Shown piece by piece: positions 2 through 54,447 of a stretch of DNA of 64,000 nt. The notes beneath the pieces were generated by a model, which worked only from the letters and a program-made list of their open reading frames with translations, searched no databases and was not told the DNA's origin. The stretch is from an uncultured delta proteobacterium (GTDB taxonomy: Bacteria; Desulfobacterota; Desulfobulbia; Desulfobulbales; BM004). Each line of letters begins with the position of its first letter. Within the stretch, counting starts at the first letter, position 1. The translations under genes were made by a program, and so were the position numbers. The DNA is taken from contig CAWAPG010000005.1 of assembly GCA_963783905.1 (NCBI GenBank), positions 2,820 through 66,819 of the forward strand, given 5' to 3'.

Positions 2-847
2 GAGTTTGTGGTCGGAAATTGCCGGGAGAAGAATTCTCTGCAACAGGCTGTGCAGGATGTCGATCATGTGTTTCATCTTGCCGGTGCGACAATGGCCATC
101 AAGGAAAAAACTTTTTTCGAAGTGAATGGACAGGGTACGGAGAACCTCGTCCAGGCCTGTATCGAAAACAATACCCGTCTCAAAAAATTTATCTATATTT
201 CGAGCCAGGCAGCAGCAGGTCCGGGTCGGAGCGAAGGGAAGAAAAACGAATCCGACCCTTGCGAACCGGTTTCGCCCTATGGAAAAAGTAAATTGCTGGG
301 GGAGAAATTGGCCCTGTCCCACTCCCATGAGCTGCCTCTCCTCATCCTGCGGCCCTGTGCCGTCTATGGCCCCAGGGACAAAGGTTTTTATACTATTTTT
401 AAGTGCCTCTCCAGGGGCATTAACCCTTGTCTCTCTGGCCACGATCAACACATCAGTATGTGTTATGTTCAGGATCTTGTCCAGGCGATCCTTCTGGCTG
501 CCGAGACCCGGACAGAGAACGGGGAGATATTTTTTTTGTCTGATGGCCATGACTACCGGATGGGGGAAATTGCTGACACCTTCGCGCAGGCGATGGAGAT
601 AAGGGCGCTGAAGCTCCGACTCCCTAAACAGATGCTGTTCAGCCTGGGCTTTCTGGCGGAAGGTTTCGCCAGACTCACCGGCAAGCCTTCCATCATGAGC
701 AGAGGCAAGGTCGAGGAAATGATCTGTAAGAATTGGCTCTGCGACATTACCAAGGCCAGGGCGGTATTGGGTTTCGAGCCCCGGATTTCTCTAGCTCAGG
801 GAGCGGAATTAACCGTTGCCTGGTACAAAAAAGAAAATTGGCTTTAG
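2..847 (+). CDS. NAD-dependent epimerase/dehydratase-family (extended SDR) reductase; 5' end lies upstream of the window
   Basis: The frame is open from the window edge (codons at 2, 5, 8...). The N-terminal Rossmann GxxGxxG is absent, so roughly 50 codons are missing. Catalytic YxxxK is present (SPYGKSKLLGE), along with HLAG and RPCAVYGPRD motifs typical of the fold. The gene ends 40 nt before the next gene. Confidence 0.75.
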   Translation, partial: EFVVGNCREKNSLQQAVQDVDHVFHLAGATMAIKEKTFFEVNGQGTENLVQACIENNTRLKKFIYISSQAAAGPGRSEGKKNESDPCEPVSPYGKSKLLGEKLALSHSHELPLLILRPCAVYGPRDKGFYTIFKCLSRGINPCLSGHDQHISMCYVQDLVQAILLAAETRTENGEIFFLSDGHDYRMGEIADTFAQAMEIRALKLRLPKQMLFSLGFLAEGFARLTGKPSIMSRGKVEEMICKNWLCDITKARAVLGFEPRISLAQGAELTVAWYKKENWL

Positions 848-887
848 CAATATTCTCGAATAACCATTAAAAGCATAAAGAACAATC

Positions 888-2009
888 ATGGCCGGCATTG
901 AAATCATTACTGTGGAAAGCAGATCGGAGCTTGGGGACTTCATTGACCTGCCGTGGAAAATTTATGCTGATTACCCCCATTGGGTTCCCCCCCTGAAGAA
1001 AGATGTTCGACATTTGCTGGATCCCCTCACCCACCCTTTCTGGGAGTTTTCCGAGCGGATCCTCTTTCTGGCCCGGCGTGGCTCGGAGACAGTGGGGAGG
1101 ATCGCGGGCATCATCGATCGCCGTCATAACGAGTTCCACGTTGAACAGATGGGCATTTGGGGATTCTTCGAATGCGTCGACGATCCGGAGGCCGCGGCAG
1201 CCCTGTTCTCTTCCGTGGAAACGTGGGTTCGCCGGAAGGGGATGACCTTCGTGCGAGGCCCGCTCAATCCCTCCATCAATTACGAGGCGGGCTTGCTCAT
1301 CGACGGGTTTGAGTATCCGCCTGCCTTGATGATGACGTACAATCCGCCTTACTACCTGAGGTTAGTCGAATCGTGCGGCTTCACCAAGGAAAAGGACCTC
1401 TTTTCATTCATGATCGAAGGTGATTACCACCTTCCCGAGTGGATGGATAGTCTTGCTGCACGGTTGGCCCGGAAAAAAACCATCCGCATCAGGCCCTTTC
1501 GGCTCAAGGAACCGGTCCCTGAACTAGCTCTGGTCAGGGAGATATTCAACGACTGCTGGTCCGGCAACTGGGGTTACGTCCCCTTGAGCGATCATGAGAT
1601 ACGGGAGATAGGAAAAGACCTGGTGAAAATCGCGGATCAGGACCTGGCTTTTTTCATCTATTATGAGGATGAACCCGCGGGGGTCTGCGTGATCCTGCCC
1701 GACATCAACCCGTTGCTCAAGCGTCTCAACGGGCGCATCGGCCTGCCGGGTTTGCTGAAGTTTCTCATATATCGGCGGGAGATTACCGGATTGCGGGGAA
1801 TGCTCTTCGGTGTCAAGGAGAAGTACAGGCAACTGGGACTCCCCATTCTGGCTTTCAGTCACGTGTATGAGGCTGTAAGGAAGAAGGGAAATTACCGTTA
1901 TCTGGAGATGGGCTGGACCCTGGAGGACAACGAGTCGATCAACTACCTGGTCGAGGAAGCCGGCGCTAGAATACACAAAAAATACAGTTTGCTGAGAAAA
2001 TCGTTATGA
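888..2009 (+). CDS. GNAT-like N-acyltransferase-fold protein (373 aa), candidate lipid N-acyltransferase
   Basis: Intact ORF starting at ATG 888. The C-terminal part carries an acyl-CoA N-acyltransferase-like motif A (KYRQLGLPILAF) followed by EMGWTLEDNESIN...GARIHKKY. Family assignment is by eye only. Confidence 0.5.
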   Translation: MAGIEIITVESRSELGDFIDLPWKIYADYPHWVPPLKKDVRHLLDPLTHPFWEFSERILFLARRGSETVGRIAGIIDRRHNEFHVEQMGIWGFFECVDDPEAAAALFSSVETWVRRKGMTFVRGPLNPSINYEAGLLIDGFEYPPALMMTYNPPYYLRLVESCGFTKEKDLFSFMIEGDYHLPEWMDSLAARLARKKTIRIRPFRLKEPVPELALVREIFNDCWSGNWGYVPLSDHEIREIGKDLVKIADQDLAFFIYYEDEPAGVCVILPDINPLLKRLNGRIGLPGLLKFLIYRREITGLRGMLFGVKEKYRQLGLPILAFSHVYEAVRKKGNYRYLEMGWTLEDNESINYLVEEAGARIHKKYSLLRKSL

Positions 2010-2045
2010 TGACTGAAGACGGTGGTAACGCGTTGAAACGGAGGG

Positions 2046-5000
2046 ATGGACATGTCGGCTGAACATCGGATTCCAATCATAGCTTTCGTCTGGCGGCCTG
2101 AAGAGATGTGCCTGCCTGTGACCCAAATGGCGCAACGAACCGGGACCAGGGCCATCTTCGATTGTTCCATGCTGAAGGCGGAAGCACTCCGTTCTGTCTT
2201 GCGAAAAACCGGCGGTGCCTGCCCCGTCCGTGATATTAAGATTTCCGCCCCTGCCTTGATGGAACCGTCTCTGGAGCAGTTACTGCAAGAAGCAGGGGTC
2301 CAAAACATCTGGGTCGAATGCCCCAACCGGTTATTCCAGGGGACTTTTTCCGTCTTTCTCCAGAGATTGCGGCAATTGTCGCAAGTCTATTGTTGCTTTC
2401 CAATCCTCGGAGACTTGCATTTTGCGGCAACGATATTGACCGATAACTATGGCATCGGCCGCGTTGTCCTGAAAGGATGCGAGGCATCCGGATTTGTTAG
2501 CGGCGAGACGACCCTGGCGTTTTATGCAGCGGTCAAGGAGATGCTGTCCAACTCACCGCAATCAGTGGACATCCTCATCTGGGGTTCTATCTCCACCCCT
2601 GAGGCGGCAGCGGCATTGCTATGCACCGGGGCCACGGGGATCGTCTTCGAGAGTCTCCATTGGCTGACCGACCTAGTTGCCGTTGATGATGATCAGCGCC
2701 TACGACTCTCCAACCTCCGCCTGGATTCGACCGATCTGGTCGGCCTCGACTTGCAGGTCCCCTGTCGCCTTTTCAACAAGGGCAACTCGACCGCGTTCAA
2801 GGAACTCAAACAGTTCGAAAGTTCGCTGTGCGGAGCAACGATCACGGAGGAAAACCGTCGTTCCTTCGCAGACCGGGTGCGTACCGGGGCCGTCCACCCT
2901 CTTGCAAGCAGCTTCAGCCCGGACGAGGTCATCCCTCTTGGTGTGGAGACCGCCTTTGCTGCGTCCTTTGCCGAACGTTTCGGGACGAAGACCGAGGTAG
3001 CTGTCCAGTCCTTCATGGATGAGACTCGCAGCCTGTGCCGCCTGGCTGAGGTAAAAAAGGATTTCTTTCTGGACAGCCCTGTAGCCGCAGAGATGGGAGT
3101 CACATATCCCTTTATCCAGGGGGCCATGTCCTGGATCTCTGATGTCCCGGAGTTTGCCGCAAGGATTGCCGAGGCCGGTGGACTGCCTACCATTGCCCTT
3201 GGCCTCATGGACGCTCAGGCCCTTGATCAGAGGCTGGGACGCCTGCCGGAGATTATGGCAGGACGCCCTTATGCAGTGAATATCATCTCTCTGGCAGAGA
3301 ATCCTTGCAGGGAGACCCAACTGGCTTGGATAAAGAAACACCCGCCCCGTTTTGTAGTGATCGCAGGCGGTGATCTCTCGCCTTTAAAGGAATTGCTGGA
3401 ATGCGGCCTGGAGGTCATATATATCGCCCCTGATGAGGCCCTGTTGCAGCTCGCCCTTAAAGCCGGCGTCCGCTACTTGATCTGCGAGGGGTATGAGGCC
3501 GGCGGGCACGTGGGGCGCCACAGCACCCTTACCCTGGCGCAAAGGGTGTTGGATCTGAAACGACAAAAACCAGGCCTGTTTCAAAAGTGTCGCATTATTC
3601 TTGCCGGGGGAATCTGCAATCGGGAGACCGCATTCATAGCCGCTATGCTCGGAGCGGATGGTATCCAGATGGGCACCGCGTATCTGGCCACCCGGGAGAT
3701 CGTTGAAACGGACGCCCTGACCGCGCTCTATCAGCACATGATCCTGGAATCGGTTCCGGGCGGAACGGTCGTTTCAGGCCAGGCCACCGGGCTTCGGGTA
3801 CGATCCTTGCGGACCCCGAGAACGGAGGCGGTTTTATCCCTGGAGAGGGAGTTTGCCGCGGGGCACCAGGACGAGCACTCCTTTCGCATGAAAATAGAAG
3901 AAATGACGGCCGGGAGCCTCTTTGCCGCGGCCCACGGCATGAACAGACCTGGCGGGGCGCCTCTCGATGAGTCGGCCTGCCGGGAACGCGGCCAATTCAT
4001 GAGCGGGGCCTGCGCCGGCCTCATCAGTAATGTCCTGGATCTGCCGACCTTCCATCGCGAACTGGCCGTAGGTCCTCTTTTGTTGCATCAGCCATTTGAA
4101 GAGGCAGCCATCGAAAAAATAACGGCAGCTTCATCTGAACCTTCGCACCCCATAAAAACCACATCCCCCGTGTCTGGCCATGGACTGAAGCAGAGAACGG
4201 TGTATAGAGCTGCCCATGAAAGGGTTGCCATCACCGGCATGAGTATTCTCAATACCTTGGGAAAAAGTCCGGATGAGATCTGGACTGCCAGCCTGGCCAT
4301 GAAAAGCGGGATTACCCTGGTCCCGTCTTCCCGGTGGGATCACGAGCGTTTTTATGACCCCCGCCCGTTCGTCCCGGACAAGACTTACTGCAAGGTGGGC
4401 GCCTTCCTGGACTTTCGGATCTCACGCAATGAACTCGGGATCCCCCCCCATGATTTCCGGACCATGACCGAATCCACCAAGACCACCATGTGGCTGGCGG
4501 AAAAAGCTATCCGGGCATCCGGCATCCTGGAGTCAGACATTCCGCGGGAACGAATCGGGGTCCTCATTTCCCAGAATTCGGGAGAAGCGGCGGAGCCCCT
4601 GACCGATTTGATCATAAGGGGATACGTGCATGACATCCTCGCCTGCATCAGAAAGGCCGTTCATCTCACACCGGATCAGTTGAGTGCCATCGAAAGCGAG
4701 GTGAAGTCCGGACGCACGCCCCCGGACGATACTACCCTCCTGGGCAGACTCAACTCCGCAGCGGGCGGCTTTATCTGCAACCGGTACGGGTTCATGGGCC
4801 CCAGTCATTCTGTCTCCGCAGCCTGCGCCACCTCACTGGTTGCACTATACAGCGCTTTCCAGATGATCCAAAACGGCATCATCGATGCAGCCATCGTCGG
4901 CGGGGGCGAAGAGCATCTCACCCACCTTCATTTTGTGGAATTCTCCGCCCTGGGCGCTCTTTACGGGTTGTCAGGACAGGAAAGGCCCGCTCACGAGACC

Positions 5001-8000
5001 TCCCGCCCCTTTGATGCCGAACGAGACGGGATGGTTCTGGGTGAAGGCGGGGGCATGATCGTCATTGAGCGGGAAAGTTTGGCCCGGGAAAGAGGGGCGC
5101 CTGTCCACGCCGTCATCACGGGCATGGGAGCAAGCAACAACCATCTGGGCATGGTAGAGTCTTCCAGTGTCAGCCAGGAGCTCGCCATCCGCGCCTCTTT
5201 CAAAGAGACACCCTATGGGCCTGATGCGGTTGACCTGGTGGAATGCCATGCCACCAGCACCCGGCAAGGCGACGGACAGGAGGTCCAAGCCCTGCGGTCC
5301 TTCTTCAATTCCTCCAAGCGCACAGTCCTTACCTCGCTCAAGTCCCAGATCGGACATACCCTTGGCGCCTCGGGTATCAACAGCCTCATTCGAGGAGTTA
5401 TGTCCATGAAAGCCGGGGTTTTCCCCCCTACACTCAATTATATAAATCCAGACCCGGAAATAGGCCTGGAAGGATCAGGGTTCTTCGTCGCCCCCGAGCC
5501 GTTTGACTGGCAGTGTGGAGCGGGCCGGTTAAGAAGGCTTCAGGTCAACTCTTTCGGGTTTGGAGGTTCCAACTATGTGGTGCAGTTGGAGCAGGCCAGG
5601 GATGAAGAAGCTGCGATCCTGGTATTGCCGGGCGGTGCGCCCGGTCTCGCCCGGGAGCAAGCTGCCGGCACCTCGGATTTACATGAAGAGCCGAATTCCG
5701 CAGGAGATGCAAGTTGTGGGCCTCCTGAGCTTCAGGGCGTCTCTTTCTTCCGGACAGAGGTCGAAGGCCTCCACTGCCGGATGGCCGTTGTGGCGCCATC
5801 CGAAGAGGAGGCGCTCACGGTCATCGAGAGGTCGGCCTCCATTATCAAATCGGGATTTGTCTCACCCAAGGCATTGAGGTCCCTGGCGCAGCAGGGAATT
5901 TTTATTGGCCGCGAGGATCTGCCGGTGCGGCCGCTCGCCTTGGTATTTCCCGGACAGGGATCACAGTATAACGGAATGGGACGGGAACTCTATGAGTCTT
6001 TTTCCGTGATCAGAGAGTGGATGGATAGGGCTGCAGATGCAGCAGAATTTGATCTCCTTCACCTGATGTTTCACGACCAAGAGGAAAATCTTGCAAAAAC
6101 CCGGTGGCAGCAACCGGCCATGTTTGCCATGGAACATGCCATGGCCCGATACCTCATGACCCTTGGTATCCATCCAGTGGCCATGGCCGGCCACAGCCTG
6201 GGCGAGTTGACCGCTTTGTGCCTGGCCGGTGTCTATTCCCCGGAAGACGGGTTTCGCATCGTGAACAAGCGGGCCCTCTGCATGGACAAGGCCGCCGGCA
6301 TGCACGTGGACCCCGGCGTCATGGCGGCCGTGGACGTCCCCCCGGATCTGCTGCAAGAGATGATCAAGGGACGGAACGATGTCCATATCGGCAATATCAA
6401 TGCACCGAACCAGATCGTCCTGAGCGGCAGCACCAAGGCGGTCAAGGATATGTGCAAGAAAATCAAGGAGATGGGATGCCGGGCCACCCTCCTGCGGGTC
6501 AGCATGGCCTTCCATTCTCCTATCATGAAGGTCATCCATGATGAGCTCGAGGCGTACATTGCCTCCATTCCATTTCATTCTCCACAGATACCCGTCATCT
6601 CCAACAAGACCATGGCGCCGTATCCAGCAGATCCCAATGAGATCAGGCGCATCCTGATGGCCCACCTGGAATCTACCGTCCATTGGATGAATAATGTCCA
6701 GACCCTTAGCAATGACTATGGAGTCGGGCTCTTCGTGGAGGTGGGCCCCGGCGATGTCTTAAGCAATCTCATCGCCGACACGCTTCCTGAATCGATATGT
6801 ATCCAGACGTCCATTCCTGCTGAAGAGGGTTCTACCTACAGGACCGCCCTGGCGCAGCTCTTTGTGCAAGGGTCTCTGCAGGTTGCAGGAGAACCGAGGC
6901 TTGTTTCCCTGCCTCCATTCAGGAAGGCTGCCGAATCTCACCCTGTGGCCCCAGCACCAGGATCGCGATCGTCAAAACCCGGGATGGTGGGCGTTAACCC
7001 GGTGGAAAGAATCATTCAAAGGGAAATCAACCGATTCGTGATGGAGACCTTCGGCCGCTTTCTCAAGCCCAACATCCTGGAAGCCATCCGCCAGGAACTT
7101 GATCCGACATTCCAGGAGGGCGAGCTCTCATCCCTTATCAATTCCATGCTCGGGGATTCCGGGCTTCTCGAAGACCGGGGGCTGGACTCTTCCGGCAAAT
7201 CGGCATCCCCGCCTCTTGCTCGTACCCCTGCGGTTCCGCAATCGGCCTCACCTCCCCTCGGTGAAACGTCTGCATTCCAAACAGCAGGTACCAGCCTGCA
7301 GCCGGCCACCAAGTCTGTTACTCACGGCCCAGTGGGGGATGGGGCCTCGGATTCCAAGTGGAATGAGGGCCAAGATATTACAGAGAGGCTCATTCACATC
7401 ATCATGGATGCGACAGGATTCAACCGGGACGAAATCCAGCCCGATATGGATCTGAGGCGCGACCTCTCCATCCGCTCCAGCCGTCTGCCCATCATCATGG
7501 ATGCCGCGGAACAGCAATTCGGCATCACCATCGAACTGGAGGATTTTATCGGCGTCCGTACCGTGCGGGAAATTGCTGAGAAGATTTCCGATCTGGTCGC
7601 CGGGAATGAAGGTCCCACCCCTTCAACCGCCAAGGCGGTTCAAGCCGGCACTCCAGTCGCGGAGGGACAGGCCGTCCCTGCCCTTGCCGGGTCGCCCCAG
7701 CATCAGGACCGACCAGGACCATATAGAAACGCTTATTCAAATCATCATGGATGCGACAGGATTCAACCGGGACGAAATCCAACCCGATATGGATCTGAGG
7801 CGCGATCTCTCCATCCGCTCCAGCCGCCTGCCCATCATCATGGATGCCGCGGAACAGCAATTCGGCATCACCATCGAACTGGAGGATTTTATAGGCCTCC
7901 GCACGGTGAGGGAAATTGCTGATAAAATTTCCGATATAGTCGCCGCAAAAACAGGTGCCGGCCTGCCATCGGCCGACAAGGCGGCTGACCCCGGCCCGTG

Positions 8001-9519: not shown

Positions 9520-10500
9520 CCCGTCCTCTGCCCTATGGAGAATTGGATGGAGGCACCGCGGCCTTCAGTCCCGGGGACTTTCCCATGATCGAGGGGATCT
9601 CTAGCCTGGACATCCGGCGGGAACAACTCGAGGCTTTCAGATCCTTCTCCCGGGAAAAGGATCTTTGGATCGAGGATCACAGACCCTTGACGTTCGTCAA
9701 GCATCCCCTGGTCTCAGCCGCCATGTTTCTGGAGACATTCATGGAAGCGGCCCGGATACTGTATCCTTACCTGCAGGTGCGGGGAGTTCGCCAGGTGCGG
9801 TTCATGGACATGATCCAATGTCCGCCCGGGGTTCCGCGGCCTTCCAGGATCTCCTGCCGTCGAGTCGGTACCAATCTTCCGGAGGTATGTGTGCGAGGTC
9901 TCTCTTGCGGCACAGGAGATCTCTCCGACCGGGAGATTGACCGACCGCTTCTCCCCGCACTGTCAGGGCCAGGTGATCCTTGCCGGCGGGGATGGCGGAG
10001 ACGGATATCTCGGGGAGGGGTTTCCGGATTTTCCTGTCCGGCCCGACGAACTGCGGACCAGTGCCCATGGATCAGAAAAGGTACTGCAATGGTACAAGGA
10101 CCACAGCGGCCTTACCGGCAGGTATCGCGTGCTGGAGTCCCTTGACGGTGCAGGTCCGGGAGTGGTGCGGGGACAAACCATATACCGGCAGACAGGTGAT
10201 TTCGCAAATCTGGCCAACGCGCAGTACCAATACTCTCCCTACCTTTTCGAAGCCCTTTTGCAGTTGGCCGGCTTCTACTGCATGGCCATGAAGATGCCGG
10301 AGCAACGATCCCTGATTCCCATGGAGATCGGGGAAATGTGGTTTTGCCGAAAATGCCGGGAGGGGGAGCGGATCACCCTGGAGGCCCGCATGCGGGCAGA
10401 GAACGAGCAAGGCCTCAGCTGGGACGCCAGAGGAGTTGACGAACAGGGTCGCACCATCATGCAGGTTGCCGATATGCGGATGCAATGGGTTTCAGAATGA
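9516..10500 (+). CDS. Free-standing PKS dehydratase (hot-dog DH) subunit (one internal frame change)
   Basis: ATG 9516 sits in an ATGA overlap. DH signature LWIEDHRPLTFVKHPLVSAAMFLE is present (His codon 9678-9680), and the C-terminal half reads YSPYLFEALLQLAGFYCM. The frame changes at about 9886-9893 inside a tgtgtg run. Stop is at 10498-10500. Confidence 0.65.
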
Positions 10501-11289
10501 ATAATGTCGATGGTTGGAGATGTCTTTCTATCTCACCCGATGAACGATTACCAGAGAGTGGATGTGGCGAAGAATATGCCAAAATATAACCGTCCATGCC
10601 GTGAGTTTTGATCGGCAAGGGGGGCAGGCATTCTATGCCTCCTTGCCGGGCCGATGCCGAAACCTGCAAACAGTACCGGGCCAACGGGGCAGGAGACAGG
10701 AATCATCTGGCCTCCGTCCTCCTGGACCACGTTGCGGCGATGGAAAATCCCTCTCTGGAAAAGCCGGCTTTCCTTCGATAAAGCGGCTTTCCCGATTCAC
10801 GTGGTCCACGGCCCGCTCGGCCGGCCCCATCTCCTCTTGGGAGAATATCGGGTCCCGGCCATCTCCTTCAGCGAGGGTGGCGGGAGAGTCTGGGCCGCTC
10901 TTTGCGGGGATGAGTCCGATATCGGCATTGATGTGGCAGCGGCCGATGAATTCCAGGGAGAATATCCCTTGCACCGAGTTTTTCATGACCAGGAGCTGCA
11001 GCATGCATTGAGGTTGACAGGCGGAGATCGGGAAAAAGCAGCAGCCCTGCTCTGGTCCATCAAGGAAGCGGTGGTCAAGGCCCTGGGATGCGCGTTCCAC
11101 CTGGTGGCGCCCCGACAAGTCCTTGTCTATCCAGCCCTGAGCGGAAACGGGGGGTATACTTTTCCAGTGGGCTTATCAAGGCAGGCCCTGGTGCGGTCTC
11201 CCTCCGCTGCCGGCAGCTCCATCCGGGTGCGTTCGTTTCCCCGGGAAAAGTTGTGGCTTTCCATCGCCTTTTTGAAGGTCAATTCATGA
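10497..11289 (+). CDS. Sfp-type 4'-phosphopantetheinyl transferase; N-terminal ~100 codons cannot be read in one frame
   Basis: The C-terminal two thirds (ORF 10654..11289) carry GPLGRPHL...ISFSEGGG...IGIDV and WSIKEAVVKALG (PPTase motifs). An ATGA-coupled ATG at 10497 gives MNNVDGWRCLSISPDERLPE (typical W...LSPDE start) but stops at 10587. All three frames contain stops between 10497 and 10780. Stop 11287-11289 overlaps the next ATG. Confidence 0.7.
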
Positions 11290-12239
11290 CAAAAGAAGCT
11301 GAATACGCCATCGAAGTCGAAAAACTGACGAAGCGCTACGGGGATTTGGAGGCGGTTAATGACATTTCGTTCAATGTCAGGCAAGGCGAGGTTTTCGCCT
11401 TGCTGGGCCCCAACGGAGCCGGTAAGACCACTACCGTCGAGATAATCGAAACCACCCGCAGGCCAACCTCGGGGATCGTTCGTCTGCTCGGGATGGACGT
11501 CACAAAGGAAAAGCGCAACATCGTCCCCCGCATCGGGGTCCTGCCCCAGGGGTTCAGCTCGTTTGACCGGATAACGGTCAGGGAGACCTTGCAGTATTAC
11601 TCGCGGCTCTTCAGTAGCAGAAACGCCGATATCGACGGGCTGATAGAGCTCGTGAAGCTCACGGATAAGGCCCGGGAGCAGTACATGAGCCTCTCCGGGG
11701 GGTTAAAGCAGCGACTCGGAATCGCCATTGCCCTGGTCAACGACCCCGAGGTGGTGTTTCTCGACGAGCCGACCACCGGACTCGACCCGCGCGCCAGGCA
11801 CGAGGTGTGGGATGTCCTGGTGGGCCTGAAAAAGCAGGGAAAGACGGTATTTCTCACCACGCACTACATGGAGGAAGCCGAGCTGCTGGCAGACACGGTA
11901 GCCATTATCTCCAAGGGCAGGATAATCGCCATGGACTCTCCCGAGCATCTCATGGCAAGCAATGCGGATTACCTGATCCTCACGCTCCAGGGCGTTGATG
12001 AAAAAGCTTTTGAGGTCGTTGGGAAGATGGGCTTTGATCCGCAACTTAGCAACCACAAGAACATTACGGTGAGGATCAATCGCATGGACGACATCCGCAA
12101 TATATTGAACGCCATGGACGATGCCGGGGCGCCGGTGCTCAGCATGGACGTTCGCAAGCCCAACCTCGAACAGGTTTTCCTGAAGCTCACCGGCGAGGCG
12201 CTCCACGAAGGCGCCGCCGAGGAAAAGGGGGCAGTATGA
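11286..12239 (+). CDS. ABC transporter ATP-binding protein
   Basis: Walker A GPNGAGKTTT, signature LSGGLKQRL, Walker B VVFLDEPTTGLD. ATG 11286 overlaps the PPTase stop (ATGA), and the stop overlaps the permease ATG at 12236. Confidence 0.9.
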   Translation: MTKEAEYAIEVEKLTKRYGDLEAVNDISFNVRQGEVFALLGPNGAGKTTTVEIIETTRRPTSGIVRLLGMDVTKEKRNIVPRIGVLPQGFSSFDRITVRETLQYYSRLFSSRNADIDGLIELVKLTDKAREQYMSLSGGLKQRLGIAIALVNDPEVVFLDEPTTGLDPRARHEVWDVLVGLKKQGKTVFLTTHYMEEAELLADTVAIISKGRIIAMDSPEHLMASNADYLILTLQGVDEKAFEVVGKMGFDPQLSNHKNITVRINRMDDIRNILNAMDDAGAPVLSMDVRKPNLEQVFLKLTGEALHEGAAEEKGAV

Positions 12240-13352
12240 ATTTGCGCGTTGTTGCCGCAAGTCTGGTCATAAGCTTCAAGAGCTTTTACCGCGAAAAGAC
12301 CACCATGTTCTTTACCTTGACCTTCCCGATCATGCTGATCCTGGTGTTCGGCACCATTTTCATGGATGACGACAAGATCAACTTCAACCTGTGCGTGCAG
12401 GACCTCGATCAAACCGCCACCTCGGCGGAGATCTCCCAGGCCCTTGACTATACCGGCAAGCTCCAGATAACCCAGGTTGATCCGGCCATCGACGCCACCC
12501 AGTACGCCAAGGACAACCAGGTCAACCTTGTCCTCGTGATTCCCAAAGGCTACGAAGAAGCTTACGGACGAATATCTGCAATCAGACTATCCCAGCGCCT
12601 TCGTTACCTTCACGTATATCTACGACCCCAGCTCAGTCTCGGTGGTTGATAAGATGCAGATCCTGGAGATGGTGTTTGCCAGGCTGAACCAGGGGCTGAC
12701 CGCAATGCCGCCGTTCATCAGGACGAAGACCGTATCGATACACACCCGGAAATACCGGTTCATCGAGTTCTTCATCCCCGGCATCATCGCCATGATGGTC
12801 ATGACCGAGAGCATGTTCGGCACGGTGAACGTGAATACGGAGCTGCGGCAGAAAGGCATCATCAGGAAGCTGGCCACCACCCCCATCACCCGTACCGACT
12901 GGATCGTGTCGAACATTCTGTACCAGTTCATGCTCGCGGTCATCGCCACCACGGCCATGCTGCTGGTGGGCTATGGTGTGTTTGACGTCAAATTGCAGAT
13001 AAACGCCTGGCTGCCGTTGTTCATTGTGCTTGACGTCTTCATGTTCGTCGGCATCGGCATGCTGCTCACCCGCGTCGTGCGGGAGGCGCAGAGCGCCGCC
13101 GCCGCCGCCAACGCCGTTGCCTTTCCGATGATGTTTCTCTCCGGCAGTTTCTTTCCCCTGGAGATGATGCCGCGCTTCCTGCAGACCTTCGCCAAAGTGC
13201 TGCCTCTGTACTATGTCAACGAGGGCCTCCGGGCCTCCATGGTGTTTCACGACAACATGGCCTCCCTGCGTTACGCCGCTATCTTAGGAGCTCTCGCTAC
13301 CGCGGTCTTCATCGTGGGCATAACGGCCACTCGATGGGAGGAGAGCAAGTAA
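12236..13352 (+). CDS. ABC-2 type transporter permease (one internal frame change)
   Basis: ORFs 12236..12649 and 12642..13352 are joined by an indel near 12565-12570 (KGYEEAYG then EYLQSDYPSAFVTFTYIYDPSSVSVVDKMQ in the next frame). The protein has an N-terminal TM helix, a periplasmic loop, and a C-terminal multi-TM ABC-2 domain (FFIPGIIAMMVM..., AFPMMFLSGSFFPLEMMP). Confidence 0.8.
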
Positions 13353-13603
13353 TGGGATTAGCACTCACAGAGCACCGAATCTGCTTTGTTATTGCCCTGT
13401 TCGCATACGGATGTATAGCGCGAACAGAACGATGTCGCGCATCTCCGGCACCCTGCGAGTGCTGCTTACAGGGTGCCGAGCAAGCGGCAACGAGGCAAGC
13501 GCTTCTCCCCACGTCGATAAACGGTTAGAGGGTACTACAGGTAAGCGAGCCTGCGAGACTCCGAAGGAGACGCGGTGCCCTTTTGTGACAGCTTACGGTC
13601 AGT

Positions 13604-14605
13604 CTACCGCCGGCGCACCCAATCGCAGCTGAGGCAGGTCGGAAACCCGCGATAGTCGAGCTTGCCGAAGTTCCTCCTGATTGCGGCCAACGTCGGCCCA
13701 TTCCAGATTTCCCTTAGACTCTGGGAATTCACATCTCCTACGCCCTGAACGCCATTGTAATCTACGCAACAGGTAACGGCCCTGCCGTTGCAGAGCACCG
13801 ACAGGGCTGACCAGGGGTAAAAACAGACAGACACAATCCTTTTTCCCAGAACGTTGTACGACTTCCCGCCGCCAAAGTTGTCCAAAGAGCTGATATTCAT
13901 GCAGTCGCCGCTATTTTTATCCGGCAGAGAACGGTACAGAGCTTGAAACTCCTCGCTTCTGGCCCCATTGGCTTCCTGGGGCAGGTATTGCAGGATCAGC
14001 TTCGGGGTCTTTTCCCCCAGTTCCTTCCTTATTCTCATAAAGTCTTTGATGTTTTGCAGCGTCACCTTGAAATCCAGCCTTCTCATGGTGGCGTTATATG
14101 ATTGTTCATCGGTGCCGTAAAAACTGATCTTCATCCTATCCAATCCCGCATGAATGATCTTTCTCGATGTCTCGGGGAACAGTAACGATCCATTGGTCAC
14201 GATATAGGTATGCTTTATCCCGCAGGCCTTGGCGAGCGCGATTCTTTCAGGCAATAATGGATCCAGAAGCGGTTCGCCGAACCCGTGCAGATGGACGACG
14301 GGTTTTCGGCGCGCACTGGAGAGTTCTGCCATGATCTTTTCGAATAAGCCAAACTCCATGAAGCCGTGTTTTCGGGTCAGCGTGTCGCGAGGGCACATAA
14401 CACACTGCGCGTTGCAGCAGTTGGTATTCTCGATCAGTAGCACCGAGGGCAAGGGGAGGTGGTGTCGGTAATATGGATAATAAAGCAGGGGGGTCCGGGC
14501 CAATGACGTCAACAGGCACTTTGTTATCTTGTCCCGGATGTTCAGAATCATGTTGCCTGCTTCGTTTAGTCGTAACCGTTCGGGGAAAATGCAACTCTTT
14601 CTCAT
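13604..14605 (-). CDS. Radical SAM enzyme with C-terminal SPASM/twitch-like Cys-rich domain
   Basis: CxxxCxxC cluster motif CNAQCVMCP lies at ~14400-14430 on the minus strand, followed by GFGEPLLDP. The C-terminal Cys-rich stretch is CFYPWSALSVLCNGRAVTCCVDYNG...FPTCLSCDW. The gene starts 20 nt downstream of the FAAL-ACP-AOS stop. An alternative start is at 14551. Confidence 0.8.
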   Translation of the reverse strand: MRKSCIFPERLRLNEAGNMILNIRDKITKCLLTSLARTPLLYYPYYRHHLPLPSVLLIENTNCCNAQCVMCPRDTLTRKHGFMEFGLFEKIMAELSSARRKPVVHLHGFGEPLLDPLLPERIALAKACGIKHTYIVTNGSLLFPETSRKIIHAGLDRMKISFYGTDEQSYNATMRRLDFKVTLQNIKDFMRIRKELGEKTPKLILQYLPQEANGARSEEFQALYRSLPDKNSGDCMNISSLDNFGGGKSYNVLGKRIVSVCFYPWSALSVLCNGRAVTCCVDYNGVQGVGDVNSQSLREIWNGPTLAAIRRNFGKLDYRGFPTCLSCDWVRRR

Positions 14606-14625
14606 TGCCGGTAAACGGTTACCGT

Positions 14626-17600
14626 TTAGTCATGCTGCAAGGCTTCCAGCTCCGCAACGACAACATCCAGGGTAAAACGAATCTGTTCGGGCGTATGGGT
14701 GCAGTTGACAAAAAAGCGCAGCCGGGCAAAGTTGTCAGGAACTGCCGGATAGACCATGGGCAAGACATCGATCCCCTGCTGGGAGAGGGATTGCGAGAGT
14801 CTTGTCGCCTTCAGGGAATCTCCCACGATCAACGGAATTATAGCGGAATCGCAACTGCCGGCGCCGGTATTGAGACCCCTTTCCCGAGCCAGCAGATGAA
14901 AAAGCCCGGCGAGTTCATGGAGGTGCGTCACCCGCTGCGGCTCCTTCCGCAACAAGCGAATGGCGGCCAGGGCTGATGCGACATTCGGCGGCGATATGCC
15001 CACGCTGTAGACGAAGCCCGGCGCCGTGTATTTCAGGTATTCGATGAGGGCCCGGGAGCCGGCGATGTAACCTCCGCAACTGGCAAAGGATTTGCTCAAG
15101 GTGCCCATCCAAAGTTCCACATCGGCGGGATTGACACCAAAGTGCTCGCCAATCCCCCTGCCTCTTTTCCCCAATGCCCCGATGGAATGGGCCTCGTCCA
15201 CCATGAGAAGGGCACCGTACCGTTTCTTTATCTTGATAAACTCCGGAAGTTCAGGGATATCACCATCCATACTGTAAAGGCCTTCGATAACCACGAGGGC
15301 CCGTCGGAAACGGGGTCGCGACTCCTTGAGAATCGTGTCCAGGGCTCGCCAGTTGTTGTGCGGAAAAGAAAGAGACGTTGCCTGGGAGAGCCGGCATCCC
15401 TGGAGAACACTGTTGTGGATCAGGGCATCATGAATGATGAGGTCGGATTTGCCGAAAAGATGGCCGATAGTGGTCACGTTGGTGGCATGGCCGCTCACAA
15501 ATACCAGGCTGTCCTCGGTACCAATCAAATCGGCGATTTCTTGCTCAAGCTCCCGATGCAGGGGCCTTTCGCCTGAGGCAATACGGCTTGCCGAAACGGA
15601 CGTGCCGTAGCGGTCGATGGCGTCTTTGGCGGCTTGCGATACGACCGGATCTCCGGACATACCCAGGTAATTGTACCTGGAAAATGAAATGAACTCTCGA
15701 CCTGCGGCAATGGCGCAATTGAAGTCGACCCCTTCGTGCACCCGGAAGTAAGGATTGTCGATACCCCGCGCCTTCATTCCCTGGATGATCCGCTGCAGAT
15801 TCCGGTATTCGGGGTAGTCCGCAAACGGCAGGTACTCCGGTTGTATCTTAGGGGCCTTGCCATGGACGTCAGCCTTTTCCGCCGGCTCTCCGGATTGACG
15901 GCCGGATGAAAGCAGCTTTCCCAAAGGTCCGTCTTTGGCTTCAAGTCCTCTTCCCGACGTCCTTTGCCAGAGAACATGCGCTGTCAGGTCGGAAATACCA
16001 GCCCCCAGAAAGAGCGCCTCAAAGGGAAACTCGATTCCCATCTCTTCTTCAATGTCCGTCTTCATCTCCATTGCCATCAAAGAATCAATGCCCATCATAT
16101 TCAGGGGACAGTGCACATCCACCCTGGAGAACGGGATCTTCAGGAGGTCCGCCACCTTTTTGGTAATATAATGCTCAATGGCACGGAAGAACTCCGACGT
16201 ATCTTTTGTCTCCATGTCATCCGATTCCAACAAGTCGAGCTTAAGTGCACGGCCATCCGGAAGGCTTGCAGCCGACGTGTCCGTTCTCATGTGGCCCGGT
16301 TTCCATTCGTCCCATGCCTCGTCGCGGGGTATCCTCGGCTCAACTTCCCAGGAAGGGACCGGACACTTGGCAACAACCTGCAAGTTGCCCTGGATGAAAT
16401 GTTCCCGACAAAGGCGACGTTGGACCTTGCCACTGGTCGTTTTGGGAAGACTTGCGGTCTTGATGAGCGCCACCGCGTAAACCCCGATTCCATGCTCTCT
16501 TGATACACTTTGGCAAATGGATTTGACCACCGCCACTGCGTCAAGTTTTCTGAGGTGTAGTCGCTCGATCTCCTGCACCACCACCAACCGTTCATCACCC
16601 CCGACTTCAACGGCGAACGCCACCCCGCAGCCTGGCCGCAAGGCCTCATGGCTTCTCTCCACGGTCCCCTCAATGTCTTGCGGATAGTAATTGAGGCCCC
16701 GGATGATAATGAGGTCCTTCAGACGACCGGTGACAATGAGCTGGCCGGCATGGATGAACCCGAGGTCTCCCGTACGCAGAAAGGGACCTTCTCCCGTATC
16801 AGCAAGCCTTGCCCGGAAGGTCTGCTCCGAATCTTCGGGCCGATTCCAATATCCTTGGGCAACACTTGGTCCAGAGATCCATATTTCTCCGATCTTATCG
16901 CGCTCGCAGAGAGTTTGCGTCTCCGGGTCGACGATCACAATCTCATGGCCCGGCAACACTTCCCCGGTTCCAACCAGCTCGAAATCGTGCTCGCTGTCTT
17001 CTGCCGCCAGGGAAAAGCGGCCGGCTATCAACGCCTGCGCGTCCACCTGCAGGAATGTCGGTTTGGCGCTTTTGTCGCATCCGGTGGCGATAAGGGTCAT
17101 TTCCGAGAGACCATAACAGGGCAGAAATGCTTTTTGCCGAAAGCCGCAGGGTTCGAACGCCGCGGTAAAGCGCTGGAGCGTCTCCCACCTGACCGGCTCG
17201 GCACCGTTAAAAGCGACATCCCAACTGCTCAGATCAAGCTCTGACTTCTGCTCCGGCGTGATCTTTTGCACACAAAGATCGTAGGCGAAATTCGGCCCGC
17301 CGCTGCTCGTGCCCTTATAGCGTGAGATGGCCATAAGCCAGCGGAGCGGTTTTTGGATGAAATGCACTGGCGATATCAGGATCGCATCTCCACCTGCGTA
17401 AAGGGGCTGGATGATCCCACCGACCAACCCCATGTCGTGGTAAGGCGGCAGCCAGATTATGCCGCGCATACTCGATGAATGCCCAAAAACTGTTTGGATG
17501 GCGGCTGAATTATGGAGGATGTTTCCATGGCTGACCATTATGCCCTTGGGATTTCCCGTGGAACCGGAGGTGTATTGGAAGACAGCGGAGGAATCAGCAC

Positions 17601-18141
17601 CTAGGGGGGGTTCCTGCCAACCATCTGCCAGGTCGTCGGCAATGGTGTCGGTTGCTATCCAGTTGAGGGTCGCCAGCCCGGGAGTCTGACCTATTTGGTG
17701 TCCGTACTTCTCCAGGGTTGAGGCGGTGGAGAGAGCCGCTGCTGGTTCTGCGTCGGCTGCCGTTGCGGCGAGGCTGGCCAGGAACCGGTTGGAATACGGG
17801 AGATTGACCGGCACGGCGACCATGCCCGCACACAGGCACCCGAAGAATGCCGCGGGAAACTCGATGCCCGTAGGGTAAAGCAAAAGGACTCTTTCCCCCG
17901 GAGAGAAACGAGATTGAAGATGTGCGGCAATGGCAAGCGCCCTCTGTTCCAGCTCACAATATGTCAGTCCGGTTTCTTGTGATTCTCCATCGTTGAGATA
18001 GGTGTAGATGGTTTTCTCTCCATGGACTTGAGCCCTTCGGCGCAGCAGGTGGATCAGGTTCGTAACTCCTGGCGTGCAACTCCTGGGGACCGGGGAGAAG
18101 TGAGCCGTATGGCTTGAATCGTCTTCCAGACTATTATACAT
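14626..18141 (-). CDS. Tri-domain fusion: fatty acyl-AMP ligase (FAAL) - ACP - PLP-dependent alpha-oxoamine synthase (Spt/BioF/Kbl family)
   Basis: Intact 1171-aa ORF. FAAL motifs are FQYTSGSTGNPKGIMVSHGNILHN, YGLSE, TGDLGF and PKTTSGKVQR. The ACP motif is MGIDSLMAMEM (Ser codon 16081-16083). The AOS domain has YNYLGMS, SGHATN, DEAHSIG and the PLP-lysine in GTLSKSFASCGGY (Lys codon 15091-15093). Confidence 0.85.
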   Translation of the reverse strand: MYNSLEDDSSHTAHFSPVPRSCTPGVTNLIHLLRRRAQVHGEKTIYTYLNDGESQETGLTYCELEQRALAIAAHLQSRFSPGERVLLLYPTGIEFPAAFFGCLCAGMVAVPVNLPYSNRFLASLAATAADAEPAAALSTASTLEKYGHQIGQTPGLATLNWIATDTIADDLADGWQEPPLGADSSAVFQYTSGSTGNPKGIMVSHGNILHNSAAIQTVFGHSSSMRGIIWLPPYHDMGLVGGIIQPLYAGGDAILISPVHFIQKPLRWLMAISRYKGTSSGGPNFAYDLCVQKITPEQKSELDLSSWDVAFNGAEPVRWETLQRFTAAFEPCGFRQKAFLPCYGLSEMTLIATGCDKSAKPTFLQVDAQALIAGRFSLAAEDSEHDFELVGTGEVLPGHEIVIVDPETQTLCERDKIGEIWISGPSVAQGYWNRPEDSEQTFRARLADTGEGPFLRTGDLGFIHAGQLIVTGRLKDLIIIRGLNYYPQDIEGTVERSHEALRPGCGVAFAVEVGGDERLVVVQEIERLHLRKLDAVAVVKSICQSVSREHGIGVYAVALIKTASLPKTTSGKVQRRLCREHFIQGNLQVVAKCPVPSWEVEPRIPRDEAWDEWKPGHMRTDTSAASLPDGRALKLDLLESDDMETKDTSEFFRAIEHYITKKVADLLKIPFSRVDVHCPLNMMGIDSLMAMEMKTDIEEEMGIEFPFEALFLGAGISDLTAHVLWQRTSGRGLEAKDGPLGKLLSSGRQSGEPAEKADVHGKAPKIQPEYLPFADYPEYRNLQRIIQGMKARGIDNPYFRVHEGVDFNCAIAAGREFISFSRYNYLGMSGDPVVSQAAKDAIDRYGTSVSASRIASGERPLHRELEQEIADLIGTEDSLVFVSGHATNVTTIGHLFGKSDLIIHDALIHNSVLQGCRLSQATSLSFPHNNWRALDTILKESRPRFRRALVVIEGLYSMDGDIPELPEFIKIKKRYGALLMVDEAHSIGALGKRGRGIGEHFGVNPADVELWMGTLSKSFASCGGYIAGSRALIEYLKYTAPGFVYSVGISPPNVASALAAIRLLRKEPQRVTHLHELAGLFHLLARERGLNTGAGSCDSAIIPLIVGDSLKATRLSQSLSQQGIDVLPMVYPAVPDNFARLRFFVNCTHTPEQIRFTLDVVVAELEALQHD

Positions 18142-46232: not shown

Positions 46233-50333
<4,101 letters not shown>

Positions 50334-50368: not shown

Positions 50369-54447
<4,079 letters not shown>

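What the first reader, a model, noticed from the sequence alone, without database searches (positions are those of the whole stretch)
2..18141. Ceramide-like amino-lipid pathway logic combined with a private iterative PKS, PPTase, ABC-2 exporter and a radical SAM enzyme
Seen in sequence:
- Two convergent operons fill the first 18 kb.
- Plus strand, with tight or 4-nt overlapping junctions: SDR reductase (2-847), a 373-aa GNAT-like acyltransferase (888-2009), ER-KS-AT-ACP-ACP (2046-8145), KR (8142-9519), DH (9516-10500), Sfp-type PPTase (10497-11289), ABC ATPase (11286-12239) and ABC-2 permease (12236-13352).
- Minus strand: FAAL-ACP-alpha-oxoamine synthase (18141-14626), then radical SAM/SPASM (14605-13604).

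Established knowledge: bacterial ceramide synthesis as worked out in Caulobacter uses these enzyme classes as separate proteins. They are an acyl-ACP synthetase, an ACP, serine palmitoyltransferase (an alpha-oxoamine synthase), a GNAT-type ceramide synthase (bCerS), and an NAD-dependent epimerase/dehydratase-family reductase (CerR).

Inference: this locus encodes a sphingoid or amino-lipid type pathway. Activation, carrier and condensation steps are fused in one polypeptide. A dedicated FAS-like PKS supplies an unusual acyl chain, and the product is exported. The amino-acid substrate, chain length and role of the radical SAM enzyme cannot be read from the sequence.
Basis: partly seen in the sequence, partly recalled or inferred. 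Interest (0 to 1): 0.8.

Follow-up and report, generated by a model that had tools for sequence, protein, structure and literature searches.

The report
Ceramide-type lipid cluster with private PKS
This 18-kb locus of a sulfate-reducer-like bacterium carries relatives of all the known bacterial ceramide-synthesis enzymes, joined to its own fatty-acid-type polyketide synthase and an exporter, so it is a testable candidate source of sphingolipid-like lipids in oxygen-free sediments.

Summary
The gene structure is not. Between 7.6 and 12.7 kb about ten single-base indels break the reading frames. "KR" and "DH" are not separate genes. In relatives the synthase is one 2,611-2,710-aa protein, ER-KS-AT-ACP-KR-DH. 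Three quoted 4-nt overlaps (8142, 9516, 10497) are frameshift by-products. rpoC in the same window is broken too, so these are most likely assembly errors, not gene decay.

The 373-aa protein is a full-length homologue of E. coli YghO, the orthologue of Caulobacter ceramide synthase bCerS. The FAAL, AOS and SDR parts match E. coli B AasR, Spt and CerR at 29-34% identity. The AOS domain never groups with BioF or Kbl and scores far from CqsA. It lies in a distinct clade of FAAL- or PKS-fused AOS enzymes.

The layout recurs in four Desulfobacterota assemblies. Phycisphaerales and betaproteobacterial loci keep AOS, exporter and bCerS-like genes but no synthase.

Most likely product: an exported N-acyl amino-alcohol (ceramide-like) lipid. 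The synthase probably supplies the N-acyl chain.

It is a new variant of a known kind. No chemistry was shown.

The parts
2..847 (+). CerR-like extended SDR (NAD-dependent epimerase/dehydratase family); 5' end lies outside the window
   Evidence: Pfam Epimerase 92 bits. It covers residues 46-326 of the 326-aa orthologue in L001 at 78% identity. That orthologue is 29% identical to E. coli B CerR, E 1e-38.
888..2009 (+). YghO/bCerS-family tandem-GNAT N-acyltransferase, 373 aa, intact
   Evidence: No Pfam or NCBIfam hit of its own. 34% identity to E. coli YghO over the full length, E 1e-67. Some family members hit GNAT models above cut-off, and natural AOS-YghO fusions exist. All top Foldseek hits are GNATs, although the model is of low confidence.
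2046..10500 (+). One FAS-like iterative type I PKS gene. Domains: unknown N-terminal ~350 aa; ER (NMO type, ~3093-3906); KS (~4218-5442); AT (~5943-6810); ACP1 (~7383-7581); ACP2 (~7726-7924); KR (~8170-9519); DH (~9530-10497). Six single-base indels interrupt it in this assembly.
   Evidence: Pfam domains. Collinear with the single 2652-aa ORF of L001/L007 in six frame-alternating pieces at 49-81% identity. Indel positions.
10562..11289 (+). Sfp-type phosphopantetheinyl transferase, broken by 2-3 indels (~10576?, 10651, 10752). The start is probably ATG 10562, not 10497.
   Evidence: Pfam ACPS. tblastn with the 241-aa L001 PPTase gives three pieces in frames 2, 3 and 1.
11286..12239 (+). ABC transporter ATPase, intact; ATGA overlap with the PPTase stop
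   Evidence: Pfam ABC_tran 108 bits. 78-80% identical to the ATPase at the same position in four relatives.
12236..13352 (+). ABC-2 permease, one frame break near 12550
   Evidence: Pfam ABC2_membrane and ABC2_membrane_3 hits on the two ORF halves. tblastn gives two pieces in frames 2 and 3 covering residues 1-371 of the L004 orthologue.
13604..14605 (-). Radical SAM/SPASM enzyme, 333 aa, intact; accessory to the cluster
   Evidence: Pfam Radical_SAM plus SPASM. No NCBIfam cut-off is reached. Best solved relatives are BtrN, GDGT-MAS and DesII, all weak. Present in L005, L007 and L009; absent in L004, L015 and L050.
14626..18141 (-). Tri-domain FAAL (16372-18045), ACP (15973-16170) and alpha-oxoamine synthase (14677-15696), 1171 aa, intact
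   Evidence: Pfam AMP-binding, PP-binding and Aminotran_1_2. The FAAL domain is 34% identical to E. coli AasR, E 4e-80. The AOS domain is 34% identical to E. coli B Spt, E 3e-56. The best solved relatives are SPTs. Tree placement.

Best explanation
The locus is a variant of the bacterial ceramide pathway that makes and exports an N-acylated long-chain amino-alcohol (ceramide-like) lipid.

Proposed steps, all inferred from homology and gene order:
1. The FAAL domain adenylates a free fatty acid and loads it on the ACP of the same protein. In Caulobacter and E. coli B this is done by the separate AasR and AcpR proteins.
2. The AOS domain condenses the acyl-ACP with an amino acid, with loss of CO2, to give a 2-amino-3-keto lipid. 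This is the role of Spt. Serine or alanine are the likeliest substrates, but the substrate is not determined.
3. The YghO/bCerS-type tandem GNAT N-acylates the amine.
4. The CerR-like SDR reduces the 3-keto group.
5. The FAS-like synthase has all reducing domains (ER-KS-AT-ACP-ACP-KR-DH), a malonyl-type AT and no thioesterase, and its own PPTase activates it. It most likely builds a saturated, possibly very long acyl chain on its ACP. The GNAT encoded just upstream takes this chain as acyl donor.
6. The ABC/ABC-2 pair moves the lipid out of the inner membrane.
7. In relatives, a GT-B-like protein and a HAD phosphatase encoded just upstream of the window may add a head group.
8. The radical SAM/SPASM enzyme is an optional tailoring step that does not need oxygen.

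The frame breaks at 7.6-12.7 kb are assembly errors, not gene decay.
For: Homology:
- Four of the five Caulobacter/E. coli B dihydroceramide components were compared directly and have homologues here: YghO/bCerS, Spt, CerR and AasR. The fifth, AcpR, is represented only by an ACP (PP-binding) domain; it was not compared with AcpR.
- The E. coli locus itself was read. Its functional assignment comes from PMC9386255 and PMC11324152.

AOS placement:
- The best solved relatives are SPTs, at 244 bits. Kbl scores 210, BioF 171 and CqsA 88.
- In the tree the domain never joins BioF or Kbl. It joins eukaryotic SPT subunits with 96.5% support.

Family links:
- Natural AOS-YghO fusion proteins exist (P0296, P0381).
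- Rubrobacter has an AOS-YghO-oxidoreductase operon.

Synteny:
- The layout bCerS-PKS-PPTase-ABC-ABC2, convergent with (rSAM)-FAAL-ACP-AOS, recurs in L004, L005, L007 and L009.
- In L015 and L050 the operon is FAAL-ACP-AOS-ABC-ABC2-GT-B-like-bCerS-like, with no synthase.
- Five further contigs carry both a GNAT and an AOS homologue, judged by matching contig lengths.

Precedents:
- PKS-derived sphingolipids are made by PfSgaAB (PMC12134224).
- Rv1347c, a GNAT, is among the fold hits. From my own knowledge it uses an acyl-ACP donor.

Assembly errors:
- rpoC is split into three ORFs in the same window.
- The pieces between breaks keep 49-81% identity to the orthologue.
- Related long-read-style assemblies break the gene at other places.
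Against: - The AOS domain reaches none of the three curated bacterial SPT models: 245-315 bits against cut-offs of 500-670. E. coli B Spt passes with 600 bits.
- The AOS domain sits outside the bacterial Spt clade, so serine use is not established.
- The node joining all SPT-like enzymes against BioF, Kbl and HemA has only 38% support.
- The tree is a small neighbour-joining tree. It lacks CqsA/LqsA and PfSgaB.
- Nothing shows which enzyme receives the synthase product.
- The SDR is missing next to the cluster in L003 and L015, and the AOS gene was not found within reach in L010 and L014.
- The structure model of the GNAT-like protein is poor (pLDDT 62).
- No product has been observed.
Confidence: 0.62

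Rival explanations
1. The synthase makes the long-chain base, not the N-acyl chain. Its product is released, or handed over in trans, to the FAAL-ACP-AOS protein, as in the PfSgaAB system. The YghO-like enzyme then uses ordinary acyl-CoA or acyl-ACP.
For: PfSgaA (iterative PKS) plus PfSgaB (AOS) make long sphinganines (PMC12134224). A Planktothrix PKS (KS-AT-DH-ER-KR-ACP-AOS) carries an AOS domain 60% identical to this one, so this AOS clade does offload PKS chains.
Against: - The synthase has no thioesterase to free the acid that a FAAL needs.
- The synthase gene follows the bCerS-like gene directly and lies in the opposite operon from the AOS gene.
- Loci without the synthase keep the FAAL-ACP-AOS protein unchanged in architecture (L015, L050), so that protein is self-sufficient.
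Confidence: 0.22
2. The plus-strand operon is a decaying, non-functional pseudogene array. Only the minus-strand FAAL-ACP-AOS and radical SAM genes still work.
For: About ten frame breaks are confined to 7.6-12.7 kb, while 2-7.6 kb and 13.6-18.1 kb have none.
Against: - The essential gene rpoC in the same window is broken into three ORFs.
- No in-frame stops or loss of similarity are seen inside the pieces, which keep 49-81% identity.
- Relatives from similar assemblies break at different positions. Other assemblies have intact 2611-2710-aa ORFs.
Confidence: 0.1
3. The product is not a membrane ceramide. It is a small amino-ketone or amino-alcohol secondary metabolite or signal, similar in chemistry to CAI-1/LAI-1 or to alkylamine natural products, and the GNAT acts in self-resistance or capping.
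For: AOS enzymes fused to PKS parts occur in natural-product pathways. The AOS domain meets no SPT equivalog cut-off. The ABC-2 exporter is of the DrrAB kind (weak DrrA C-terminal hit).
Against: - The AOS domain is far from CqsA.
- The GNAT is a full-length member of the YghO/bCerS family, not a small capping GNAT.
- The CerR-like SDR and the FAAL, which is specific for long chains, are co-conserved.
- The bCerS-like protein is more than 70% identical across Desulfobulbaceae, Syntrophobacteraceae, Aminicenantales and Lentisphaerae. That fits a conserved lipid better than a variable metabolite.
Confidence: 0.06

Closest known systems
Bacterial dihydroceramide pathway of Caulobacter crescentus and E. 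coli B: AasR, AcpR, Spt, bCerS (CC_1154/YghO) and CerR (CC_1164)
   Same: The same five functions are present. Four were compared directly with the E. coli B proteins and are homologous: 34% identity for AasR, Spt and YghO, and 29% for CerR. The ACP domain was not compared with AcpR. The fatty acid is activated onto a dedicated ACP rather than CoA. The genes are clustered with a lipid exporter.
   Different: - Activation, carrier and condensation are fused in one 1171-aa protein.
- The AOS domain lies outside the bacterial Spt clade and fails the curated SPT models.
- Export is by an ABC-2 pair instead of LptF2/LptG2 plus a flippase.
- A FAS-like PKS, a PPTase and a radical SAM enzyme are added.
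- The host is an anaerobe.
PfSgaAB(C), the PKS-derived sphingolipid cluster of Pseudomonas fluorescens MYb115 (PMC12134224)
   Same: An iterative type I PKS is clustered with an alpha-oxoamine synthase and a reductase to make sphingoid lipids.
   Different: - There the AOS stands alone and takes the chain from the PKS, and no bCerS-type enzyme or FAAL is described.
- Here the AOS has its own FAAL-ACP loader.
- Here the PKS has a different build, with an N-terminal NMO-type ER, and it sits next to the N-acyltransferase gene.
- Sequences of SgaA and SgaB were not available for comparison.
Planktothrix agardhii plasmid p3 PKS, KS-AT-DH-ER-KR-ACP-AOS (uncharacterised)
   Same: Its AOS domain is the closest annotated relative, at 60% identity. 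It belongs to the same clade of fused AOS enzymes (99.5% bootstrap).
   Different: The AOS domain terminates a canonical reducing PKS module. There is no FAAL and no YghO-like or SDR neighbour. GT39 glycosyltransferases flank the gene.
PUFA-synthase-like 'secondary lipid' synthases (Shulse and Allen 2011; PMC3098273)
   Same: A FAS-like iterative megasynthase with an NMO/PfaD-type ER, tandem ACPs and an adjacent PPTase, found in anaerobic Deltaproteobacteria.
   Different: There is no KS-CLF pair and no FabA-type DH. The PfaA and PfaD models score far below cut-off: 350 against 1010, and 28 against 449. The text held did not show whether their single-genome 'Type S' (Desulfobacterium autotrophicum) is this architecture.

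Membership tests
Bacterial ceramide pathway (Spt + AasR/AcpR + bCerS + CerR) | A YghO/CC_1154-family N-acyltransferase (bCerS) is present | tested here: met
   End-to-end alignment with E. coli YghO: 34% identity, E 1e-67. YghO is listed as the counterpart of CC_1154 in PMC9386255.
Bacterial ceramide pathway (Spt + AasR/AcpR + bCerS + CerR) | The AOS scores as serine palmitoyltransferase on curated SPT models | tested here: not met
   NF047600 315 bits against cut-off 640; NF047599 274 against 500; NF047603 245 against 670. As a positive control, E. coli B Spt scores 600 against 500.
Bacterial ceramide pathway (Spt + AasR/AcpR + bCerS + CerR) | The AOS groups with SPTs rather than BioF, Kbl, HemA or CqsA | tested here: inconclusive
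   It never groups with BioF or Kbl. It groups with eukaryotic LCB2/SPTLC2 at 96.5%, but outside the bacterial Spt clade (93.5%). The node joining all SPT-like enzymes has only 38% support. This is a small neighbour-joining tree with no CqsA or LqsA sequences.
Bacterial ceramide pathway (Spt + AasR/AcpR + bCerS + CerR) | A dedicated acyl-ACP synthetase and ACP feed the AOS | tested here: met
   The FAAL domain is 34% identical to AasR of E. coli B, E 4e-80. A PP-binding domain lies between the FAAL and AOS domains. Here all three are fused in one protein.
Bacterial ceramide pathway (Spt + AasR/AcpR + bCerS + CerR) | A CerR-type NAD-dependent epimerase/dehydratase-family reductase is present | tested here: met
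   The orthologue in L001 is 29% identical to E. coli B CerR over 312 residues, E 1e-38. Both share the same top NCBIfam hits, HpnA and OleD. The window copy lacks its N-terminus.
Bacterial ceramide pathway (Spt + AasR/AcpR + bCerS + CerR) | The genes are co-localised and co-conserved | tested here: met
   L004, L005, L007, L009, L012, L015 and L050.
Bacterial ceramide pathway (Spt + AasR/AcpR + bCerS + CerR) | The product is a (dihydro)ceramide | not testable with these tools
   Needs lipid chemistry.
PfSgaAB-type PKS-derived sphingolipid clusters | An iterative type I PKS hands its chain to a stand-alone AOS with SPT activity | tested here: not met
   The AOS is fused to its own FAAL-ACP loader and lies in the opposite operon.
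PUFA synthase (Pfa) family | PfaA-type and PfaD-type proteins score above the family cut-offs; KS-CLF pair and FabA-type DH are present | tested here: not met
   TIGR02813 350 bits against cut-off 1010; TIGR02814 28 against 449. The DH is of the PS-DH type and no CLF was found.
BioF (biotin synthesis) | The AOS passes the BioF model and has biotin-gene neighbours | tested here: not met
   TIGR00858 344 bits against cut-off 426. 0 of 200 bootstraps join it to BioF. No bio genes were found among the genes of the locus.
CqsA/LqsA autoinducer synthases | The AOS passes the alpha-hydroxyketone autoinducer synthase model | tested here: not met
   NF005526 158 bits against cut-off 428. In the PDB search CqsA scores 88 bits against 244 for SPT.

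The most novel reading that the evidence does not exclude
A bCerS-type tandem GNAT acts as the release enzyme of a thioesterase-less FAS-like megasynthase. It takes a private, possibly very long acyl chain straight from the synthase ACP onto a sphingoid amine made by a self-loading FAAL-ACP-AOS protein. A radical SAM enzyme supplies oxygen-free tailoring. Together they define a class of sphingolipids specific to anaerobes, and could be the unassigned source of ceramides or 1-deoxyceramides in euxinic waters and sediments.
Probability: 0.3. Interest if true: 0.75.

Novelty: new variant of a known kind. Interest (0 to 1): 0.6.

Why it matters
Ceramides and 1-deoxyceramides are abundant in oxygen-free waters and sediments. 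Desulfobacterota have been proposed as producers on the basis of correlation and Spt-like genes alone (PMC11334938).

This locus gives a concrete, widely distributed gene set to test.
- The bCerS-like protein has more than 1,700 detected homologues. The best 120 are at least 71% identical and come from several phyla.
- The wider family holds 7,353 clusters at 50% identity.

The locus would extend the bacterial ceramide pathway in three ways:
- a fused loader-condensing enzyme;
- a dedicated fatty-acid-type megasynthase coupled to a ceramide-synthase homologue;
- a possible oxygen-independent tailoring step.

It also warns that this assembly has local clusters of indel errors, so pseudogene calls from it are unsafe.

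Tried and rejected
- Exact look-ups of the window's own AOS and GNAT proteins found no contig on record. Context came from relatives instead.
- The pseudogene reading was considered and set aside after rpoC was found broken too.
- I considered that the ATGA at 8142 marks a real split of the synthase in this subclade, because L002, L003 and L005 also have broken genes. This was rejected. Their breaks lie elsewhere, and the true frame at 8142 is a third one.
- AlphaFold2 on 30 close homologues gave a poor model (pLDDT 62). I used it only to note that every top fold hit is a GNAT.
- Direct sequence search of the 373-aa protein against the PDB found nothing.
- Tandem Repeats Finder missed the ACP duplication; the repeat finder found it.
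- The Nat Chem Biol 2022 ceramide paper is not held, so bCerS identity rests on PMC9386255 and PMC11324152.
- Shulse and Allen's 'Type S' could not be matched to this architecture from the text.
- No paper on this particular cluster was found.
- No promoter or terminator consensus was found in the 250-nt convergent gap.
- The SPASM radical SAM gene of L006 gave no match to the window's radical SAM protein.
Full report
OBSERVATION

Open frames and domains.
- On the plus strand: an epimerase-family SDR cut by the window edge (2-847); an intact 373-aa ORF with no family hit (888-2009); then NMO-type ER, KS, AT, ACP, ACP, KR, PS-DH, an ACPS-type PPTase, an ABC ATPase and an ABC-2 permease.
- On the minus strand: an intact radical SAM/SPASM gene (13604-14605) and an intact 1171-aa FAAL-ACP-AOS gene (14626-18141).

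Gene structure.
- tblastn with the orthologous proteins of a relative finds the synthase as six pieces in alternating frames, the PPTase as three and the permease as two.
- Nucleotide alignment with three relatives places single-base indels at about 8119, 8165, 8850, 9511, 9888, 10576, 10651 and 10752.
- The two ACP copies are 87% identical and 343 nt apart. That spacing is 3n+1, so a shift lies between them.
The window reads 'LSPDRNDDIAQNV' in a third frame where the intact relative reads 'LSPDREERRAGKV'.
- The ATGA 'overlaps' at 8142, 9516 and 10497 are therefore by-products of indels.
- The overlaps at 11286 and 12236 are genuine and are shared with relatives.
- In relatives the synthase is one ORF of 2652, 2710 or 2611 aa with all domains.

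Errors or decay. I attribute the breaks to assembly errors, for three reasons.
- The essential gene rpoC in the same window is split into three ORFs. One Pfam domain is divided between two of them.
- The synthase pieces keep 49-81% identity to the orthologue.
- Related assemblies with 'contig_N' names break the same gene at other positions.
The errors are clustered: 2-7.6 kb, 13.6-18.1 kb and rpoB are clean.

WHAT THE PARTS ARE

The 373-aa protein.
- It has more than 1,700 detected homologues. The best 120 are 71-86% identical. Those with names come from Desulfobulbaceae, Syntrophobacteraceae, Aminicenantales and Lentisphaerae.
- A translated search of annotated plasmids found it to be a full-length homologue of E. 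coli YghO: 34% identity, E 1e-67.
- The E. coli locus holds a fatty acyl-AMP ligase, an epimerase-family protein, an ACP and a PLP enzyme. These are divergent from yghO and lie next to second copies of lptF and lptG.
- PMC9386255 shows this is the E. coli B sphingolipid locus. AasR is ECD_02851, the epimerase ECD_02852, AcpR ECD_02853, Spt ECD_02854 (assayed as an SPT) and yghO ECD_02850. It lists yghO as the counterpart of Caulobacter CC_1154.
- PMC11324152 names CC_1154 CerS and CC_1164 CerR.
- The family is a GNAT family. Some close homologues hit PF13480 above cut-off and distant members hit PF00583. A low-confidence model matches only GNATs, with tandem GNATs best.
- An exhaustive search finds 7,353 clusters at 50% identity. 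Among them are natural fusions of an AOS with this domain (P0296, P0381).
- A Rubrobacter plasmid has an AOS-YghO-like-oxidoreductase operon.

The other pathway parts.
- The FAAL domain is 34% identical to E. coli AasR, E 4e-80.
- The AOS domain is 34% identical to E. coli B Spt, E 3e-56.
- The full-length SDR orthologue is 29% identical to E. coli CerR, E 1e-38.
- The ACP domain was identified by Pfam only; it was not compared with AcpR.

The AOS domain in detail.
- Against solved structures its best matches are SPTs: Sphingobacterium 244 bits, plant LCB2a 229, human SPTLC2 223. Kbl scores 210, ALAS 186, BioF 171-178, cysteate acyltransferase 161 and CqsA 88.
- It reaches no curated equivalog cut-off for SPT, BioF, Kbl, ALAS or CqsA. 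E. coli B Spt, as a control, passes the SPT model.
- I built a neighbour-joining tree of 26 sequences over 372 columns with 200 bootstraps. References came from E. coli, annotated plasmids and PDB alignments.
- The tree puts the domain in a clade of FAAL- or PKS-fused AOS enzymes (99.5%). That clade joins an Acidisoma AOS (98.5%) and then eukaryotic LCB2/SPTLC2 (96.5%).
- It is separate from the bacterial Spt clade (93.5%). It never joins BioF or Kbl.
- The deeper node has only 38% support.
- The closest annotated relative is the terminal domain of a Planktothrix PKS, KS-AT-DH-ER-KR-ACP-AOS, at 60% identity.

CONSERVATION

I anchored a search of one genome per species on the ABC ATPase and mapped all cluster proteins onto the loci.
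- The same layout as the window occurs in a Desulfobulbus MAG (L007), a Desulfobulbaceae MAG (L009), a Syntrophobacteraceae MAG (L004, without the radical SAM gene) and L005.
- L012 has the GNAT-synthase-PPTase-ABC block with a stand-alone AOS and an SDR nearby.
- A more distant Syntrophobacteraceae locus (L006) combines the synthase, an SDR, the FAAL-ACP-AOS protein, three radical SAM genes and a MacB/HlyD/OEP exporter.
- A Phycisphaerales locus (L015) and a betaproteobacterial locus (L050) have a compact operon: FAAL-ACP-AOS, ABC, ABC-2, a 318-aa protein and the YghO-like gene. No synthase lies within 10 kb.
- The conserved core is therefore the AOS protein, the exporter, the 318-aa protein, the bCerS-like enzyme and often the SDR. 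The synthase with its PPTase, and the radical SAM enzyme, are add-ons.
- The 318-aa protein lies just upstream of the window in relatives, next to a HAD phosphatase. It has only weak GT-B/TagF-like similarity. It may add a head group.

MECHANISM

The best-supported reading is a ceramide-type pathway.
- Inferred from homology to assayed enzymes: the FAAL loads a fatty acid on the in-cis ACP, the AOS condenses it with an amino acid, the YghO-type GNAT N-acylates, and the SDR reduces the ketone.
- Inferred from gene order and domain logic: the synthase, which has no thioesterase, donates its chain to the GNAT encoded directly upstream.
- Supporting points for the synthase role: loci without the synthase keep a self-sufficient FAAL-ACP-AOS; the KS has the Cys-His-His triad, the AT has malonyl-type motifs and the KR has the YAAAN motif (read from the translation).
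- The main rival is that the synthase feeds the long-chain base, as in PfSgaAB (PMC12134224). The Planktothrix fusion supports that rival.
- The amino-acid substrate is open.
- The radical SAM enzyme resembles BtrN, GDGT-MAS and DesII only weakly. It is not always present, so I treat it as optional oxygen-free tailoring.

COMPARISON AND NOVELTY
- The pathway logic is the known bacterial ceramide route.
- PKS-derived sphingolipids were shown in 2025.
- Desulfobacterota were proposed as 1-deoxyceramide producers in 2024 (PMC11334938).
- I found no paper on this gene set.
- Apparently undescribed features: the fused loader-carrier-condensing protein in its own AOS clade; the coupling of a bCerS homologue to a private FAS-like megasynthase and PPTase; the ABC-2 exporter in place of an Lpt-type system; and the radical SAM gene.
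- I rate it a new variant of a known kind, of moderate to good interest because it is abundant in anoxic metagenomes and directly testable.

Noticed in passing
window 50381-54447: rpoC is split into three ORFs (50381-51292, 51234-52685, 52882-54447), and one Pfam domain is divided between the first two. The neighbouring rpoB (46233-50333) is intact. The assembly therefore has local clusters of indel errors.
   Followed up: partly
window 19945-20062 (+), within the AT-rich stretch 18-20 kb: A complete match to Rfam RF01999 (group II intron D1-D4-2), 93 bits. It lies in a stretch of GC 0.39 directly beyond the cluster. A tRNA lies at 22495-22578 (-).
   Followed up: no
window 7370-7631 and 7713-7974: The ACP is duplicated: two copies, 87% identical at DNA level. 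The Desulfobulbus orthologue has a single ACP.
   Followed up: partly
window 14677-15696 (AOS domain): In a small neighbour-joining tree the clade of FAAL- or PKS-fused AOS enzymes groups with the eukaryotic SPT catalytic subunits (LCB2, SPTLC2) at 96.5% bootstrap, apart from the bacterial Spt clade. This could bear on the origin of eukaryotic SPT. It needs a full maximum-likelihood analysis.
   Followed up: partly
L001 7165-8839; L015 12072-13028; L050 11838-12786: A 318-aa protein with only weak GT-B/TagF-like similarity is 63-65% identical between Desulfobulbus, Phycisphaerales and a betaproteobacterium. That is more conserved than the bCerS-like protein (35-37% between the window's copy and those two loci). 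A HAD phosphatase sits beside it in Desulfobulbus. It lies just outside the window and may be a head-group transferase.
   Followed up: partly
L089 3566-11164 (Planktothrix agardhii plasmid p3): An uncharacterised PKS (KS-AT-DH-ER-KR-ACP-AOS) whose AOS domain is 60% identical to the window's. GT39 glycosyltransferases flank it. It may encode a glycosylated PKS-derived amino lipid in a cyanobacterium.
   Followed up: no
proteins P0296, P0381, P0324: Natural fusions of the YghO/bCerS-like domain: with an N-terminal AOS (P0296 of 780 aa; P0381) and with a PilZ domain (P0324).
   Followed up: no
L006 4153-8602 and 13534-17783: A distant variant of the cluster carries two B12-binding radical SAM genes and a different SPASM radical SAM gene. 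Its exporter is a MacB/HlyD/OEP tripartite system instead of the ABC-2 pair.
   Followed up: no
window 40776-41966 and 57931-59121: Two 396-aa ORFs of equal length flank the rpoB-rpoC region. By position and length they are probably the usual duplicated tuf genes. This was not checked.
   Followed up: no
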